A DNA stretch of 64,000 nucleotides from a virus. Its lineage: Duplodnaviria; Caudoviricetes. The DNA is taken from the IMG/VR virus record IMGVR_UViG_3300032234_000392, positions 32,001 through 96,000 of that record. One strand, 5' to 3'. A model generated the notes under the pieces. It saw only the letters and a program-made list of their open reading frames with translations. It was not told the DNA's origin and did no database searches. A program made the position numbers and the translations under genes. Below are positions 16,321 to 54,185 of this stretch, one piece after another; position 1 is the stretch's first letter; the number at the start of each line of letters is the position of its first letter.

Positions 16321-18930
16321 TTATCCTTGATCAAATGTTATAAAACTGTTATCAAAAAATATTGAATTACTATCAAAAGAATTTATTAATACCGGAGCTG
16401 AGTCAATTATTGGACTAGGTGCTGCAAGATTATTAATTATATTACGTTGCGGAAATGCAAGGTATTTATCTTCTATGGTATTGTCTAAAATGTCTATCAC
16501 GTATCGATCTGCGTGAAAGTCAATGGTTTTAAAATCAAATGCACTAGCTTTAATTCTTGCTAAAACTGCAGGAGAACTGTTAGGATTACAATAGCATAAA
16601 GGTAATGCGCTGACATATCCCGATTCTACAAAATTGTTGGGCTGAATACTACGCATCCACAGCGGTAAAAATTCACGATCTCTATCTCCTACGGTGGTAA
16701 TTCTTTTACGCATATTTTTCAAACTATTAGGAAATACTCTTTGATGATCGCTGTCGCTGACAAAAGGAATGTCACTGTCAACTCGAATAGAGTCGTAACT
16801 AATTAAAACCTTGCTGTTAATGTTGTTTGATAATTCAACAGTTTGACTAATACTTTTTGATTTTTTTTCATATTCATCCATAACATCAACATAGATAACT
16901 TCGTAAATTACTTCCTGTGTTAACGGATCTTTGGCCTGCGCAACTTTTACGTCCCCAAAATATATTCTTTTTCGATAGTGATTTCTGCTCATGGCCTGTA
17001 CATATTTCACAGCATCTGTGCTTTCAATGCCTGCAAACACTAAAATTTTAAGTCCAGTCTGTATGCCAAAGTTTGGATCGCCGTATCGATACAGATCGCT
17101 GGATCTAAAAATAGTAGCATCTGTGATAAAATCGTACCAGTCTAATCTTTTGGTTTTAGTTTGAAATGCTTTGATATAAAGATTAGCAAAAGTTTTTGTA
17201 TTGTCTGCTACTACAGTAAGAAAGAATGTTTGATTCACACTGGCAAAATTAATCGAATCTCTAGCCTTAACTGTAAACGTAAACTTCTTATCAAACGATG
17301 TGCTATTACCGTCAAAGTTGTCTGTAAAGTTTCTTGACGGAGTAGATGAATCCTCTTCTGGAGCAAGACTGTCTGTGCGTTCAAAAAATCTAGTTAGACC
17401 AGGTCCTGCATCGTCGGCAAATTGTTTGACCTTGCCTTGTACAAGACCTGTAGGCAAAAATTCTAGACCAGGCGGCAGTTTTCCGCTAACAAACTCATAA
17501 CTAACTCGTCCACCGTAGAGAAGACTTTCTGCTTCTAGATATTTCTGGCTGGCTTGATTTGGCTTGATGGTGCCTAGATCACTATCAGTGATCCAGGTTA
17601 TGGCGCTTTCGATTTCACCAATAATTTCTACAGTAAATGTTTTGCTAGCAGATGATGTACCAACTGTCCAAAATTCAGTGTCGGTAGGTAATCTATTTCT
17701 GTGATCTACGGTACATATATAAATTAAACCGTCAAATATTACCGCATCATTTTTAAAATAATTTATGGTAGTGTTCCACGAACCTCTAAAAGAATATAGA
17801 GTGTAGGCTAGACTACTGGGAAAATTTACAGCCCTCATAGTAAACGTATAAGTTCTACTAACACGAGATTGATATGGTACAGAGCCAGCAATTTCTCCAG
17901 TAATATTATCTAAAGTCATGCCGGGTGGAATTTCGCTGGCACTGCCGTCTGGGTTTGTAGGTAGTAGGAAGTAAGTAATAGTTCCAGTTAAAGTAGGCGG
18001 ATCATATACATCTAAAAATATTGTTACGTAATTATTAGCTCTAAATCTACCCAAGTTGCTCTCAGTAATCCAAATTGGTAATCTTGCACTGCTGGCATCA
18101 GAAGTAAACAGATTAGTGTCAACCTGTACTATTGAGTTGTCGGCTTGTAAGAATTCTTCAGTGACCACATAGATTTTAAATAATCTAGTTTCTGTATACA
18201 CACCGTCCGTGACTGCTACAATAAATGTATAGATTCTGCTGAGTCTTCTAGGGGTACGACTAGGTTCATTATAGTCATAGGTTTGATTGTCATAGAAAAA
18301 TGTATCAAAACCGTTGGAGCGGACTTCGACAAAATCTAAAGGTGTAACATCTAAAGGAGTGGTATCATAGCCGCCAAACGGATCTCTTAGATATTCTAGG
18401 GCAAATATAGGATCTGTAAATCCTGAAATAACACCGTCTATGCTAAGACTTAGTCCCGGCGGTAGTAATCCGCCGTTGGGTAGTAGATAAAATTCTAATT
18501 TACCGCCTGCCGACAGATCTGAATCTCGAGCTTCTAATTGAAAATTAACCTGTGCATTATCTAATACAAAGAAGGCCTCGGCCGGTCCTACATTTAGGAA
18601 TCCTTCTTGAGTTATCCACGCAGGAACGTCGCTGCCATCAACAGCAATAGTGAATGTACGATCCTCTATGTCAACGCCGTCGCTGGCTCGAATAACAAAT
18701 TTACTTTCAGTGTAAACTTTAACTTCTGTAGGAGAACCTTTGATAAAACCGTTAGTCTGTGAACTATCATAGGTATATTCGTTGGTTAATCGAAGTCCTC
18801 GAGGTAAACTTCCAGCAATTAAAGAATAGGTTATTGTTCCGGTGTCGGATGAAGCTTCTAACGGTATGTCAACAATGACACGTTCTGTTAGTAAACCTAG
18901 GCTGCCTGCAGGAGTGATCCAGGTAATCAT
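16321..18930 (-). CDS. Ig-like repeat virion/baseplate protein
   Basis: Repeated WIT..G.LG / G.LPPGL.L...G.I.G putative Ig-domain motifs; structural gene context. Confidence 0.7.
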
Positions 18931-42537: not shown

Positions 42538-43224
42538 TTACTCCTTAGAGATTAAGGTTTCAGCCATTGGAAATACTTTGGCAATGACTTTGGCACAGGC
42601 TATGGCTATTTCCTGATGTTCTTTTTGTGTACCGTTGCCTGAACGCAGTTCGATAAAGTGTACCCACGAACGTAATGTCCCATTCATGTATAGCCGACTA
42701 ACGGTATTGCCTTCCGGCAGAACTGCTCGAGCTTGTTCTTTGGCTATACCATTATTGACAGCCCACTCGTATGTGGATTTTGCGAGTGCAATGAGTTCTC
42801 GCTGTTTAGTAGCCCATTGTTCTTGTAAGTTCTGATCGCCAAGTGTTGCCTCGAGTTCAACGGAGTTCTGTCTATTTTTTGGGTCTTGCTTTCGTGCTGC
42901 TCTAACCACAAACGAGAGGTCTTTAGTAGGGTCAGCATATCGTTGGCTGAACTCTTGGAAACTAAAACTTCTGTGTCGCAAGATCTGTCGGGCAATGTCT
43001 CTGGTTGTGGTAATTTCGAGACAGGCTGATACCATCTCCAAGGGACTCCAGTGTGCGTGTTTAACAAGATATCGTATAAGCTTCTCTGATGTCTCTGTAT
43101 TGAGCTGGTTGCTTGGGTTGCTGACACGGGCGCAATACGCAATGAGTTCCTGCGCATCTGAGATACCCATATCGGTAAATTGTTCTGTTGGCTGTGAATA
43201 GGACAGTAAGCGTACATCCATCAT
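42538..43224 (-). CDS. thyX: Flavin-dependent thymidylate synthase
   Basis: HWSPLE, RHRSFSFQEFSQRY, EQARAVLP. Confidence 0.95.
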   Translation of the reverse strand: MMDVRLLSYSQPTEQFTDMGISDAQELIAYCARVSNPSNQLNTETSEKLIRYLVKHAHWSPLEMVSACLEITTTRDIARQILRHRSFSFQEFSQRYADPTKDLSFVVRAARKQDPKNRQNSVELEATLGDQNLQEQWATKQRELIALAKSTYEWAVNNGIAKEQARAVLPEGNTVSRLYMNGTLRSWVHFIELRSGNGTQKEHQEIAIACAKVIAKVFPMAETLISKE

Positions 43225-43691
43225 TTTTCCTTTAGGATTTTCATTAATTTTTCTTTTTCAAGAAGGTCTTTTTCTAGTTCTATATATTGTTTACGTAATT
43301 CTTTTAACTGATCCCAACGGTCTTCTAGTTCTGGATTAGGATTTAGAATACCTAAACGTTCTTCAATTTTGTCAATAGCTTCACTTAAACTCTTACCACC
43401 AATTTTAATATCTCCGCCTTCTTTAATATTAACACCATTGGTATCAATTTTGACAGTAGCATCAGTAGTGCCCCAACTACCGTTAGTAGCTGTGGTATAA
43501 TTTTGATTCCACATTACAGTTGATGGAACAGTAATGCTTGTGTCGCCTGAATAAATTAAAGGATCTAAGGTTATTGTGTCACTGCCGGAACTGCCGCCAA
43601 TCCCTGCACCGGTGTTAAGGGTGTACGAAGATTGGCCGGCGCCTCCTAGACTGCTACCAAGAACGATTGTGTTATCGTCTTGATCGAGCAC
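43221..43691 (-). CDS. Hypothetical protein with C-terminal coiled coil
   Basis: Start reassigned to GTG 43691, just after the upstream stop. Confidence 0.65.
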   Translation of the reverse strand: MLDQDDNTIVLGSSLGGAGQSSYTLNTGAGIGGSSGSDTITLDPLIYSGDTSITVPSTVMWNQNYTTATNGSWGTTDATVKIDTNGVNIKEGGDIKIGGKSLSEAIDKIEERLGILNPNPELEDRWDQLKELRKQYIELEKDLLEKEKLMKILKEK

Positions 43692-43692
43692 T

Positions 43693-43887
43693 TTACGCTG
43701 CTTTGGCTTCTTTACGAGCATTCTTCTCTGCTGTGATTTCATTGCGGCGAGCTTTGATCAACTTGCCTGCTTCTGCTAGAGCTTTACGAGCACGAGTACC
43801 AGCGGCTGAATTGCCACTTGCAAACTTTGCATCTTCTGCTAGAAATGTATCCATTGCTGCTTTTAGTTGTTCTACTGTGTTTGACAT
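43693..43887 (-). CDS. Histone H1-like (Hc1-family) nucleoid protein
   Basis: F..GNSAAGTRARKAL motif; TATAAGTA box at 43913-43920; AAGGA SD. Confidence 0.75.
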   Translation of the reverse strand: MSNTVEQLKAAMDTFLAEDAKFASGNSAAGTRARKALAEAGKLIKARRNEITAEKNARKEAKAA

Positions 43888-43928
43888 AATGTTTCCTTTT
43901 GTTATGTGCATTTACTTATAAAAGTAAT

Positions 43929-44039
43929 TGGTGTGGTCGGTAGGTTTCGAACCTACAAAGGCTACGAACTACGTCAGCGCCCCTTCCCCTAACCGTGCTA
44001 TGGGCCCGGCGGGAGCTTTGCCAATTTGCTCACGACCAC
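43929..44039 (-). ncRNA. tRNA-like RNA, 111 nt, no assignable anticodon
   Basis: Acceptor GTGGTCG/CGACCAC plus A plus CCA; D-arm AGC-AAATTGGCAAA-GCT; T-arm GTAGG-TTCGAAA-CCTAC; 57 nt between D- and T-arms. Confidence 0.8.
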
Positions 44040-44045
44040 AAGTAT

Positions 44046-44074
44046 ATTATATAATCTTTGTAAAATTTATTCAA
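44046..44074 (-). promoter_or_regulatory. sigma70 promoter of the tRNA-like RNA
   Basis: TTGAAT-17 nt-TATAAT; the 7th nt downstream of the -10 box is G1 of the acceptor stem. Confidence 0.8.
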
Positions 44075-53559: not shown

Positions 53560-53742
53560 ATGACTGATAAACCTGTATTCACTGATCCTTTTTACATAGA
53601 TAAATTTATGGAAATACAACAACAGAATATTGTGCTGTATAAAATATTATTAAAAATTAAAGAAGATCCAGAATTATATAAAAACGTCACCGATAAGTTT
53701 GGTAATGATATTTTTAAAATTTTAGAACAATGTCCAGCCTAA
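53560..53742 (+). CDS. Hypothetical protein
   Basis: 60-aa ORF in operon. Confidence 0.55.
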   Translation: MTDKPVFTDPFYIDKFMEIQQQNIVLYKILLKIKEDPELYKNVTDKFGNDIFKILEQCPA

Positions 53743-54185
53743 CCTATTGTAGAGTCAAACTATCAGATACTGATTATCAAAAAGCAGACAATGCTATTTT
53801 GTTTGTGTATCCGCCTGTTGACAAATTAAAAAAAATCTATTTTGAGTATTGTGAACACAAAAAATTTGTCAGTGTTATGCCGTTATTTGAATCATATTTT
53901 ACAGACACAAATATCGATATTTGGGGATATACTGATCGAGACGTATTAGTAGCATTTAGTATTGTTAAAAAACACGATCAGCAAAATGTAGAAAGTTTGC
54001 AATTTGCGTGGAACTATAAAAATTCTAAATTAGAATTAGGTCATTTAAGTTTAGAACACGAGTGTGCCACTTATAAATCTCTAGGTTATAAGTATCTATA
54101 TCTTGGAGAAGCCAACAAATACAAATCTAAATTAAAAGGTTATGAGCTTTTAGGAAGTCTCCAAGACACTACTGAATCAAAATAA
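53730..54185 (+). CDS. Aminoacyl-tRNA--protein transferase-like (ATE1/Bpt C-terminal GNAT domain)
   Basis: LVAFS, W.Y....LELG..SL..E...K.LG.KYLYLG....YK pattern. Confidence 0.6.
   Translation: MSSLTYCRVKLSDTDYQKADNAILFVYPPVDKLKKIYFEYCEHKKFVSVMPLFESYFTDTNIDIWGYTDRDVLVAFSIVKKHDQQNVESLQFAWNYKNSKLELGHLSLEHECATYKSLGYKYLYLGEANKYKSKLKGYELLGSLQDTTESK

What the first reader, a model, noticed from the sequence alone, without database searches (positions are those of the whole stretch)
43929..44074. Independently transcribed 111-nt tRNA mimic with intact acceptor/elbow but no canonical anticodon arm
Seen: the minus strand reads GUGGUCG UG AGC AAAUUGGCAAA GCU C CCGCCGGGCCCAUAGCACGGUUAGGGGAAGGGGCG CUGACGUAGUUCGUAG CCUUU GUAGG UUCGAAA CCUAC CGACCAC A CCA. 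The 7-bp acceptor, U8, class II-like D-loop with GG, T-arm, A73 and encoded CCA are all intact. The D-to-T segment is 57 nt, about 25 nt longer than in a class II tRNA. It folds as an irregular long hairpin (CGCC/GGCG, CCC/GGG, UAGC/GUUA) plus a variable-arm-like hairpin, with no Y-U33-NNN-R37 loop in any register. A TTGAAT-17-TATAAT promoter would start transcription at about G1, so RNase P may not be needed. Inference: every element except the decoding arm is conserved, which argues for a functional non-decoding tRNA mimic rather than a decayed pseudogene. One option is an aminoacyl donor; bacterial LeuRS reads A73 and tertiary structure rather than the anticodon. Another is a decoy for host anticodon nucleases or tRNA sensors. 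It sits directly beside the tailoring-enzyme island, which encodes an aminoacyl-transferase-like protein.
Basis: partly seen in the sequence, partly recalled or inferred. Interest (0 to 1): 0.85.

Follow-up and report, generated by a model that had tools for sequence, protein, structure and literature searches.

The report
Phage leucine-tRNA look-alike without anticodon
Large T4-like freshwater phages carry a conserved ~110-nt RNA gene that keeps the body and CCA end of a leucine tRNA but has a long non-decoding hairpin instead of an anticodon arm; it is real and absent from Rfam, and its job is unknown.

Summary
The quoted sequence is present exactly (minus strand, 44039 to 43929). It is one member of a large phage-only family: at least 190 instances and 85 distinct sequences in IMG/VR, none in cultured phage records or in 185,579 bacterial and archaeal genomes. 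ARAGORN and Rfam call nothing.

Comparative analysis supports a class II tRNA shape. It has a 7-bp acceptor stem, a D arm, a 9-11-bp central arm, a 25-27-nt variable arm, a T arm, A73 and CCA, with many compensatory changes. The central arm ends in a C-Y-CAU-A-G loop, a GNRA tetraloop or other loops, so the family does not decode.

The D loop and all E. coli-type LeuRS identity elements are invariant, and the nearest relatives are the phage's own tRNA-Leu genes.

A near-consensus sigma-70 promoter ends 6 nt before G1 in 83 of 92 upstream regions. The element always heads an mRNA, which encodes the histone-like protein Hc1 in 171 of 180 cases.

The proposed links to the ATE_C-like transferase and the tailoring island are not conserved.

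My best reading is an early, stand-alone, probably leucylatable tRNA-Leu mimic that acts through its upper body. A cis 5' leader role is the main rival.

This scan found the same family earlier on another genome.

The parts
44069..44074 (-). -35 box TTGAAT of the element's promoter
   Evidence: In the family, TTGnnn lies at a 17-bp spacer in 68 of 92 distinct upstream regions.
44046..44051 (-). -10 box TATAAT, ending 6 nt before G1
   Evidence: The -10 box is TATAAT or TATACT in 85 of 92 regions and ends exactly 6 nt before G1 in 83 of 92.
43929..44039 (-). The 111-nt tRNA-Leu-derived non-decoding RNA, from G1 (44039) to A76 (43929)
   Evidence: The covariance model R1 scores it at 107.6 bits.
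44033..44039 (-). Acceptor stem 5' strand GUGGUCG, which pairs with 43933-43939
   Evidence: All 7 pairs are standard in 45 of 45 sequences, and U5-A68 changes to C-G in 4.
44014..44030 (-). D arm: AGC / AAAUUGGCAAA / GCU, preceded by U8 and G9 at 44032-44031
   Evidence: A14, A15, G18, G19 and A20a are invariant. In the second family variant the D loop, GAAUUGGUAGA, is identical to that of the phage tRNA-Leu(tag).
43986..44013 (-). Central ('anticodon-position') arm: proximal CCC/GGG, distal CCGGGC/GCACGG with one G.A mismatch, loop CCAUA
   Evidence: In 28 type-A sequences the distal stem is paired in 167 of 168 cells, with 13 different stems. In other members the arm is replaced by GNRA-capped or other hairpins.
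43958..43983 (-). Long variable arm: outer stem GGGGC/GCCUU, internal loop, inner stem GAC/GUU, triloop GUA
   Evidence: The outer stem covaries between G-C and A-U. An inner 3-bp stem with an NUA triloop occurs in 83 of 85 sequences, with 8 different stems.
43940..43956 (-). T arm GUAGG-UUCGAAA-CCUAC, preceded by U48 at 43957
   Evidence: U48 is present in 85 of 85 sequences.
43929..43932 (-). Discriminator A73 and encoded CCA
   Evidence: A73 is present in 85 of 85 sequences. The 3' end is CCA in 83 of 85 and CCG in 2. Conservation falls from 1.9 to 0.5 bits immediately after it.
43912..43927 (-). Trailer hairpin UUACUU-UUAU-AAGUAA containing the conserved motif TATAAGTA (43913-43920)
   Evidence: The stem varies between homologues while ATAAGTA stays. 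The motif is one base away from ATAAATA, which is enriched upstream of ORFs in this genome. Its function is unknown.
43693..43887 (-). Hc1 histone-like gene (64 aa, MSNTVEQLK...), SD AAGGAAA at 43892-43898; co-transcribed downstream gene
   Evidence: Pfam PF07432 Hc1, E = 2.7e-12. Hc1 follows the element in 171 of 180 instances.

Best explanation
This is the gene for a stand-alone, non-decoding tRNA-Leu mimic of T4-like jumbo freshwater phages.

Shown. The RNA folds as a class II tRNA. It has a 7-bp acceptor stem, a D arm, a T arm, a long variable arm, A73 and CCA. The anticodon arm is replaced by a 9-11-bp hairpin whose tip varies freely: C-Y-CAU-A-G, GNRA or other loops. The element derives from tRNA-Leu. 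It is single-copy and found only in phages. It sits immediately behind a near-consensus sigma-70 promoter placed so that transcription should begin at G1. It is always followed on the same strand by a protein gene, usually Hc1.

Inferred. Host RNA polymerase makes it early, as the 5' end of a transcript that runs on into Hc1. No RNase P step is needed. The host's ordinary 3'-end pathway for CCA-encoding tRNA precursors frees it at CCA. Host LeuRS can then charge it, because every known E. coli-type leucine identity element is intact and LeuRS ignores the anticodon and variable arms. It cannot read codons, so it must act through its acceptor/T/D/variable-arm body. I see two candidate modes of action. 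It may titrate or block a host factor that recognises class II tRNA bodies, for example a variable-arm-directed defence nuclease. Or it may serve as a Leu carrier for a non-ribosomal reaction.

My odds: real structured RNA family 0.97; non-decoding 0.95; released as a discrete RNA ending in CCA 0.7; leucylated in vivo 0.5; decoy or titration role about 0.25; aminoacyl donor about 0.15.
For: Structure. On 45 distinct sequences, 94.5% of cells are paired, against 87.1% in shuffles and 28-50% when partners are slid. Twelve pairs change on both sides. The type-A distal stem is paired in 167 of 168 cells, with 13 different stems. The variable-arm inner stem occurs in 83 of 85 sequences, with 8 different stems.

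Non-decoding. ARAGORN in default mode of 85. Rfam has no tRNA hit even at E<=10. The arm tips fall into type A (28), GNRA (34) and other (23).

tRNA-Leu origin. R1 scores the element at 107.6 bits. Its next-best hits are the phage's own tRNA-Leu(taa) at 36.1 bits and tRNA-Leu(tag) at 35.1 bits, and T4 tRNA-Leu at 39 bits. The D loop is identical to that of tRNA-Leu(tag).

LeuRS identity set. A73, A15-U48, G18G19, A20a, U8-A14 and the T loop are invariant. According to PMC9976931, these are required in E. coli, and tRNA-Leu lacking the anticodon and variable arms is still charged.

Discrete RNA. Conservation is about 2 bits inside the element and falls to 0.8 bits or less in the -6..-2 spacer and to 0.5 bits right after CCA. 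The final A was not imposed by my search pattern and is present in 83 of 85.

Promoter. The -10 box ends 6 nt before G1 in 83 of 92 regions.

Separability from Hc1. Nine instances head other genes. Hc1 loci without the element keep the same promoter.

Copy number. One copy in each of four large genomes, two of them complete.

Precedent. Septu and retron-Eco7 cleave the variable loop of class II tRNA-Tyr, and phage tRNA-Tyr overexpression counteracts them (PMC13096335).
Against: There are no RNA data.

The element always heads an mRNA and has no terminator after it. That fits a cis role equally well.

No partner protein co-occurs with it. Element-bearing genomes lack a phage L/F-transferase and a class Ia synthetase, and the ATE_C-like protein is not conserved with it.

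A decoy would have to compete with abundant host tRNAs.

The near-invariant acceptor and T-stem sequences go beyond what LeuRS needs and remain unexplained.

Part of the apparent invariance of the two ends in the 85-sequence set was imposed by my search pattern. The 45-sequence set retrieved through Hc1 and blastn is less biased and shows the same conservation.
Confidence: 0.5

Rival explanations
1. The element is a cis-acting 5' leader module. It stays on, or is cut from, the early mRNA it heads. It works either as a 5'-terminal stabiliser, with a fully paired 5' end starting at G1 that resists 5'-end-dependent decay, or as a tRNA-shaped processing signal. The processing version resembles plant mitochondrial t-elements or the MALAT1 mascRNA, in which a cut sets the 5' end and lifetime of the Hc1 message.
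For: All 180 instances with enough flank are followed within 70 nt or less by a same-strand gene, or by a tRNA and then a gene, with no terminator. In L108, L111, L119 and L125, CCA is followed within about 10 nt by the Hc1 SD. The strict 6-nt spacing puts the first transcribed base in the first acceptor pair. Element-less relatives use the same promoter for Hc1.
Against: A stabiliser or processing signal does not need A73, CCA, A15-U48, A20a or an elaborate conserved variable arm, yet all are invariant or covarying. Conservation stops exactly at CCA. The downstream gene differs in 9 cases. Hc1 is expressed without the element in many relatives. Hc1 may also have its own late-type promoter-like motif, ATAAGTA.
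Confidence: 0.25
2. The element is an RNA partner of Hc1. The co-expressed, highly structured RNA binds the basic histone-like protein and buffers or times its DNA-condensing activity.
For: The element and Hc1 are adjacent in 171 of 180 instances. Chlamydial Hc1 is reported to bind RNA as well as DNA (Pedersen et al. 1994, as cited in PMC12619734).
Against: Nine instances lack Hc1 downstream. About 28 of 80 Hc1 loci, and S-SRM01, lack the element. Nothing explains why a polyanion partner would keep a tRNA-Leu identity set and CCA.
Confidence: 0.06
3. The element is the Leu donor for the ATE_C/Bpt-like transferase of the neighbouring tailoring island.
For: The 151-aa protein at 53730-54185 has a weak ATE_C match (22.9 bits, E = 1.4e-4). 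The mimic has a leucine identity set.
Against: The match is below the Pfam cut-off of 25 bits. Relatives are at most 53% identical and lie on contigs that do not carry the element. The protein is absent from five large element-bearing contigs, including a 100%-complete 364-kb genome. The island adjoins the element in only about five lineages.
Confidence: 0.03
4. The element is a decoding tRNA. It would be either an intron-containing tRNA-Leu(UAG), as ARAGORN -i proposes, or a tRNA(CAU) with an extended anticodon stem.
For: ARAGORN -i calls tRNA-Leu(tag) with a 15-nt intron at position 32/33. Nine distinct relatives have a C-U-CAU-A-G loop on a 5-bp stem.
Against: The ARAGORN anticodon stem has two mismatches and conflicts with the covarying helices. 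With -i, only 23 of 85 members are called, and these carry 7 different isotypes and different intron positions. Position 33 is C in 19 of 28 type-A sequences. In type A the loop sits on an extra 3-bp pedestal plus an internal loop. Fifty-seven of the 85 members have no anticodon-like loop.
Confidence: 0.02
5. The element is a decayed tRNA-Leu pseudogene with no function.
For: The window copy carries one G.A mismatch in the central arm. The fold z-score is only -0.97.
Against: There are 85 or more distinct sequences with compensatory changes in four helices. The tertiary-contact bases are invariant. The promoter and CCA are retained, and there is a single copy in each of four large genomes.
Confidence: 0.01

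Closest known systems
Class II bacterial and phage tRNA-Leu
   Same: Both have a 7-bp acceptor stem, U8, a 3-bp D stem, a D loop of the form (G/A)AAUUGG(U/C)A(G/A)A, A15-U48, A20a, a long variable arm, a UUCGAAW T loop, A73 and an encoded CCA. tRNA-Leu genes are the next-best hits of the family model.
   Different: The element has no 5-bp/7-nt anticodon stem-loop and no Leu anticodon. In its place is a 9-11-bp hairpin with a variable tip. The variable arm is 25-27 nt with an internal loop and an NUA triloop. The acceptor and T-stem sequences are nearly fixed. It is not found by ARAGORN or the Rfam tRNA model. It lies outside the phage's tRNA array, behind its own promoter.
Phage T4 stable RNAs rnaC and rnaD (species 1 and 2 RNA)
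   Same: These are small, stable RNAs of unknown function encoded by a T4-type phage (annotation). rnaC has a tRNA-type T arm. The element-bearing genomes G001 and G006 also have T4-type Gp23 capsids.
   Different: There is no detectable homology. R1 scores rnaC at 17.7 bits, essentially on the T arm, and finds nothing for rnaD. rnaC and rnaD lie inside the tRNA cluster, not at the head of an mRNA.
tmRNA tRNA-like domain
   Same: It is a charged, non-decoding tRNA mimic that uses the acceptor/T-arm body.
   Different: tmRNA has G3.U70 alanine identity, no D stem, an internal tag ORF and pseudoknots. The element has G3-C70 and no ORF. The phage also encodes a separate permuted tmRNA.
tRNA-like processing signals at mRNA ends (plant mitochondrial t-elements, MALAT1 mascRNA); from general knowledge
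   Same: A tRNA-shaped module is joined to an mRNA or long RNA and recognised by tRNA-end-processing enzymes.
   Different: Those elements usually keep only the acceptor and T-arm features and lack an encoded CCA and a synthetase identity set. Here the full tertiary core, A73 and CCA are conserved, and no 5' leader exists for RNase P to remove.
Phage tRNA-Tyr that counters Septu and retron-Eco7 (PMC13096335)
   Same: It is a phage-encoded class II tRNA whose variable arm is central to an interaction with a host defence nuclease.
   Different: Those are complete decoding tRNAs that replace the cleaved host tRNA or partly titrate the nuclease. No nuclease is known for the present RNA, which cannot replace a tRNA in translation.
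Non-proteinogenic tRNA-Gly of staphylococci (Fem transferase donors); from general knowledge
   Same: These are tRNA species dedicated to a non-ribosomal aminoacyl transfer.
   Different: They keep a normal anticodon arm, and a cognate transferase is known. No conserved transferase accompanies the element.

Membership tests
Canonical tRNA (Rfam RF00005; ARAGORN model) | 7-bp acceptor stem, discriminator and CCA end | tested here: met
   All 7 acceptor pairs are standard in 45 of 45 sequences. A73 is present in 85 of 85 and CCA in 83 of 85.
Canonical tRNA (Rfam RF00005; ARAGORN model) | D loop with G18G19 and T loop UUCRA forming the elbow; U8-A14 | tested here: met
   These are invariant columns in A1. 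T loops are listed.
Canonical tRNA (Rfam RF00005; ARAGORN model) | 5-bp anticodon stem with a 7-nt loop (U33, R37) directly after position 26 | tested here: not met
   ARAGORN in default mode of 85. Rfam gives no tRNA hit at gathering threshold or at E<=10. The arm is 9-11 bp, and 57 of 85 members have no anticodon-like loop.
tRNA-Leu (E. coli-type LeuRS substrate) | A73 discriminator | tested here: met
   Present in 85 of 85. The requirement is from PMC9976931.
tRNA-Leu (E. coli-type LeuRS substrate) | A15-U48 Levitt pair, G18G19, A20a, and the D/T-loop tertiary pairs | tested here: met
   A15, G18, G19 and A21 (which corresponds to A20a) are invariant, as is T83 (which corresponds to U48), in A1. 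U48 is present in 85 of 85.
tRNA-Leu (E. coli-type LeuRS substrate) | Leucine anticodon (NAG or YAA) | tested here: not met
   No such loop exists in the comparative structure. The ARAGORN -i 'tag' call is an artefact.
tRNA-Leu (E. coli-type LeuRS substrate) | Actual aminoacylation with leucine | not testable with these tools
   This needs an in vitro charging assay or an acid-gel northern.
tmRNA | G3.U70 alanine identity, a tag reading frame and pseudoknots | tested here: not met
   The element has G3-C70 in 45 of 45. ARAGORN -m finds no tmRNA and Rfam none. The phage's real tmRNA lies elsewhere.
T4 rnaC/rnaD stable RNAs | Sequence or structure homology to T4 species 1 and 2 RNA | tested here: not met
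   R1 with filters off scores rnaC at 17.7 bits, essentially on its T arm, and gives rnaD no hit.
tRNA-like mRNA-end processing element (t-element or mascRNA type) | Position at the end of a longer transcript | tested here: met
   The element always heads a same-strand gene without an intervening terminator.
tRNA-like mRNA-end processing element (t-element or mascRNA type) | Endonucleolytic release by RNase P, RNase Z or RNase E | not testable with these tools

The most novel reading that the evidence does not exclude
The RNA is an early-expressed, LeuRS-chargeable class II tRNA body that has shed its anticodon because its job is not translation. One version is a dedicated inhibitor or decoy of a host immunity factor that recognises class II tRNAs by body and variable arm, in the way Septu and retron-Eco7 recognise tRNA-Tyr. 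The other is a ribosome-independent leucyl carrier. Either would be a new class of phage counter-defence or takeover RNA. It would also be the first natural anticodon-less aminoacyl-tRNA mimic encoded by a DNA phage.
Probability: 0.3. Interest if true: 0.85.

Novelty: new variant of a known kind. Interest (0 to 1): 0.68.

Why it matters
tRNA mimicry is well known in RNA viruses, in tmRNA and in a few processing signals. A widespread DNA-phage gene for a complete tRNA body without an anticodon is not in Rfam, and I found no description of one in the papers I searched.

The family is abundant in freshwater T4-like jumbo phages. Its structure is well defined and supported by covariation. It makes simple predictions that can be tested directly: a 5' end at G1, a 3' end at CCA, and charging by LeuRS.

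If the RNA is charged or acts as a decoy, it would add an RNA-based mechanism to phage host takeover or counter-defence. It would also provide a natural minimal substrate for studying recognition by LeuRS, EF-Tu and tRNA-directed nucleases. If it is only a 5' leader, it would be a bacterial and phage counterpart of the eukaryotic and organellar tRNA-like processing modules.

Tried and rejected
(1) Rfam at gathering threshold and at E<=10 gave nothing relevant; the only hit was a chance SCARNA7 match at 7.7 bits.

(2) ARAGORN in intron mode called tRNA-Leu(tag) with a 15-nt intron in this copy. I rejected this because calls across the family are inconsistent.

(3) Single-sequence MFE folding gives a different, non-significant structure (z = -0.97), so I did not use it.

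(4) I tested for co-occurrence of the ATE_C-like transferase and found none.

(5) I searched five element-bearing genomes (two complete) for a phage-encoded L/F-transferase (PF03588) and a class Ia synthetase (PF00133). Both are absent.

(6) I tested the 173-aa gene after Hc1 as an exclusive partner. It also occurs in element-less loci.

(7) I tested TATAAGTA as a general late promoter. It is not enriched in the window (5 matches against 4.9 expected). The genome's enriched upstream motif is ATAAATA, so the status of the spacer motif stays open.

(8) No cultured phage in the INPHARED collection and no GTDB species genome carries the element. S-SRM01 has Hc1 but not the element.

(10) I considered pairing between the type-A loop (CAUA) and the Hc1 start codon. 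I dropped it because only 4 nt pair and types B, C and D lack the loop.
Full report
**Observation**

Immediately upstream lie TTGAAT, a 17-nt spacer, TATAAT and 6 nt. ARAGORN finds no tRNA or tmRNA in the window. Rfam 15 finds nothing at gathering thresholds. At E<=10 on the local 301 nt it finds only a chance snoRNA match. The single-sequence fold is not better than shuffles (z = -0.97). On its own, this sequence is only suggestive.

**Genomic setting**

The window is part of a 163-kb IMG/VR viral contig that CheckV rates 46% complete. Elsewhere the contig has 19 ordinary tRNA genes; the nine printed all end in an encoded CCA. It also has a permuted tmRNA that matches Rfam tmRNA_permuted and beta_tmRNA, which hints at a betaproteobacterial host.

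Two complete relatives that carry the element, of 364 kb and 400 kb, encode T4-type Gp23 capsid proteins. The family therefore belongs to T4-like jumbo myoviruses.

The element lies in a divergent intergenic region. Downstream on the same strand is a 64-aa Hc1 histone-like gene (Pfam PF07432). Upstream on the other strand is a UDP-glucose-dehydrogenase-like gene that opens a sugar and radical-SAM island.

**A family, not a single case**

- Fetching loci through the Hc1 protein and through the T-arm/acceptor sequence gave 98 loci with the element and 45 distinct full-length sequences.
- Nothing similar exists in 50,697 cultured phage records or in one genome for each of 185,579 prokaryotic species.
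- The element is single-copy in four large genomes, two of them complete.

**Structure**

Parsing and aligning the homologues gives one architecture:

- a 7-bp acceptor stem, then U8 and R9;
- a 3-bp D stem with an 11-12-nt loop;
- a central arm of 9-11 bp, followed by a 3-4-nt linker;
- a 25-27-nt variable arm (5-bp outer stem, roughly 3x3 internal loop, 3-4-bp inner stem, NUA triloop), then U48;
- a T arm, A73 and CCA.

On alignment A1, 94.5% of cells are paired. Shuffles give 87.1%, and sliding the partners gives 28-50%. Twelve pairs change on both sides.

In the 28 type-A sequences, the six distal pairs of the central arm are paired in 167 of 168 cells, with 13 different stems. The single mismatch is the G.A of the lineage of L127, the window's closest relative; the window copy carries the same mismatch. 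The variable-arm inner stem with its NUA triloop is found in 83 of 85 sequences, with eight different stems.

**The element does not decode**

The tip of the central arm differs between lineages:

| Tip of central arm | Distinct sequences |
|---|---|
| C-Y-CAU-A-G loop closed by C-G (position 33 is C in 19 of these) | 28 |
| GNRA tetraloop | 34 |
| Long continuous stem | 12 |
| Short form | 4 |
| Other | 7 |

Even in type A, the anticodon-like hairpin stands on an extra 3-bp pedestal plus an internal loop. ARAGORN in default mode calls none of the 85. With introns allowed it, with seven different isotypes and shifting introns. Its tRNA-Leu(tag)-plus-intron call for this copy is therefore an artefact.

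**Origin from tRNA-Leu, and chargeability**

The covariance model R1 scores the element at 107.6 bits. In the same genome its next-best hits are the phage's own tRNA-Leu(taa) at 36.1 bits and tRNA-Leu(tag) at 35.1 bits. In the T4 tRNA region the best hit is T4 tRNA-Leu at 39 bits. The common D-loop variant GAAUUGGUAGA is identical to that of the phage tRNA-Leu(tag).

A73, A15-U48, G18G19, A20a, U8-A14 and the T-loop bases are invariant. According to the identity review PMC9976931, E. coli LeuRS needs exactly these. It ignores the anticodon and the variable arm, and it still charges tRNA-Leu variants that lack both arms. Charging by a proteobacterial host LeuRS is therefore plausible, but it has not been shown.

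**Transcription and boundaries**

In 92 distinct upstream regions the -10 box is TATAAT (56) or TATACT (29). It ends exactly 6 nt before G1 in 83 regions. A TTGnnn -35 box sits 17 bp upstream in 68, and position -1 is T in 81. The start is thus predicted at G1, so no RNase P step is needed.

Conservation is about 2 bits inside the element. It falls to 0.8 bits or less in the spacer before G1 and to 0.5 bits right after CCA. That pattern is what a discrete RNA running from G1 to CCA would give. The final A, which my search pattern did not impose, is kept in 83 of 85.

**Relation to Hc1**

In 171 of 180 instances with enough flank, Hc1 starts 20-60 nt after CCA. In some, the SD follows within about 10 nt. 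Hc1 loci that lack the element keep the same promoter region. The element is therefore an insertion or deletion inside the Hc1 transcription unit, and co-transcription is close to certain.

The link is not obligatory in either direction. Nine instances head other genes, or a tRNA followed by a gene. About 28 of the 80 Hc1 loci, and the cultured phage S-SRM01, have no element.

The spacer usually holds a covarying hairpin with an invariant ATAAGTA motif. This is one base away from ATAAATA, the T4-type late-promoter core. In this genome ATAAATA lies within 60 nt upstream of ORFs in 19 of its 32 occurrences, against 1.2 expected. TATAAGTA itself is not enriched. A second, late promoter for Hc1 is possible but unproven.

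The ATE_C-like 151-aa protein scores below the Pfam cut-off (22.9 against 25 bits). Its relatives are at most 53% identical and lie on other contigs. It is absent from five large element-bearing contigs, including a complete 364-kb genome. The island's first gene adjoins the element in only about five lineages. The five element-bearing genomes searched, two of them complete, have no phage L/F-transferase or class Ia synthetase. The aminoacyl-donor-for-the-island idea is therefore not supported as a family property.

**Mechanism**

The conserved parts are the acceptor/T minihelix, the elbow, the variable arm, A73 and CCA. The free part is the tip of the central arm. This pattern fits an RNA that is released as a tRNA-like molecule and read by factors that see the tRNA body. 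LeuRS is certainly a candidate. So is any host factor aimed at class II tRNAs.

There is direct precedent for defence nucleases that cleave the variable loop of class II tRNA-Tyr and are countered by phage tRNA expression (PMC13096335). I therefore favour a stand-alone, probably chargeable tRNA-Leu mimic, with overall confidence of about 0.5 for this package. A decoy role and a leucyl-carrier role are the two sub-readings.

The main rival, at about 0.25, is a cis 5' leader that stabilises or processes the early mRNA. It explains the constant position at the head of an mRNA and the exact start at the first paired base. It does not explain the conserved identity set and CCA.

**Prior notes and novelty**

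The scan's index shows that the same family was noted on another genome, and that a follow-up agent reached the same non-decoding tRNA-Leu-shaped reading (e1-5699470). I re-derived this independently here. No paper I found describes the family.

I rate it a new variant of a known kind, namely tRNA-like non-coding RNAs. Its existence and structure are well supported. Its function is open.

Noticed in passing
G000:C1:146667-147110 (-), outside the window (locus L312 667-1110): The phage encodes a two-piece (permuted) tmRNA. It matches Rfam tmRNA_permuted at 138.6 bits and beta_tmRNA at 101.4 bits. ARAGORN predicts the tag ANADTFEIGTFSFTGNTVKGGVAVAA. This suggests a betaproteobacterial host.
   Followed up: partly
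G000:C1:111075-115282 (-) and 18144-18217 (+), outside the window: There is an array of 18 conventional tRNA genes plus one solitary tRNA-Gly. The nine I printed all have an encoded CCA, and they include tRNA-Leu(taa) and tRNA-Leu(tag). ARAGORN's 92-nt 'tRNA-Ile(tat)' and 82-nt tRNA-Thr are unusually long.
   Followed up: no
window 43912-43927 (-) and homologous spacers in L002-L128: A hairpin lies between CCA and the Hc1 SD. Its stem covaries while the motif ATAAGTA stays fixed, followed by a conserved ACATAAC. The motif is one base away from the ATAAATA motif, which is enriched upstream of ORFs in this genome. It may be a late promoter or a processing site.
   Followed up: partly
window 43221-43742 (-): A 173-aa ORF overlaps the 3' end of Hc1 and precedes thyX. 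It is syntenic in most relatives but evolves fast: 29-59% identity in most loci where ThyX keeps 72-97%. It has no clear Pfam family.
   Followed up: partly
window 53730-54185 (+): A 151-aa protein has a sub-threshold ATE_C (arginyl/leucyl-tRNA protein transferase, C-terminal) match. About 120 relatives, 41-53% identical among the 80 listed, occur on other viral contigs, none of which carries the element. It is not linked to the tRNA mimic.
   Followed up: partly
L010:1346-1455 (IMGVR_UViG_3300021598_001004): This is a natural copy in which the -10 box and the first ~20 nt (the 5' acceptor strand and part of the D arm) are deleted relative to its near-identical relative L016. The acceptor stem cannot form. 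It is either a knock-out variant or an assembly artefact.
   Followed up: no
G000 whole contig: The 7-mer ATAAATA lies within 60 nt upstream of ORFs in 19 of its 32 occurrences, against 1.2 expected. This is consistent with T4-type late promoters in this jumbo phage.
   Followed up: partly
L251:5404-5500 and L299 (minus strand, just after the element): In two divergent lineages the element is followed within about 10 nt by an ordinary-looking tRNA gene and then a protein gene. In these cases it heads a mixed tRNA-mRNA operon.
   Followed up: no
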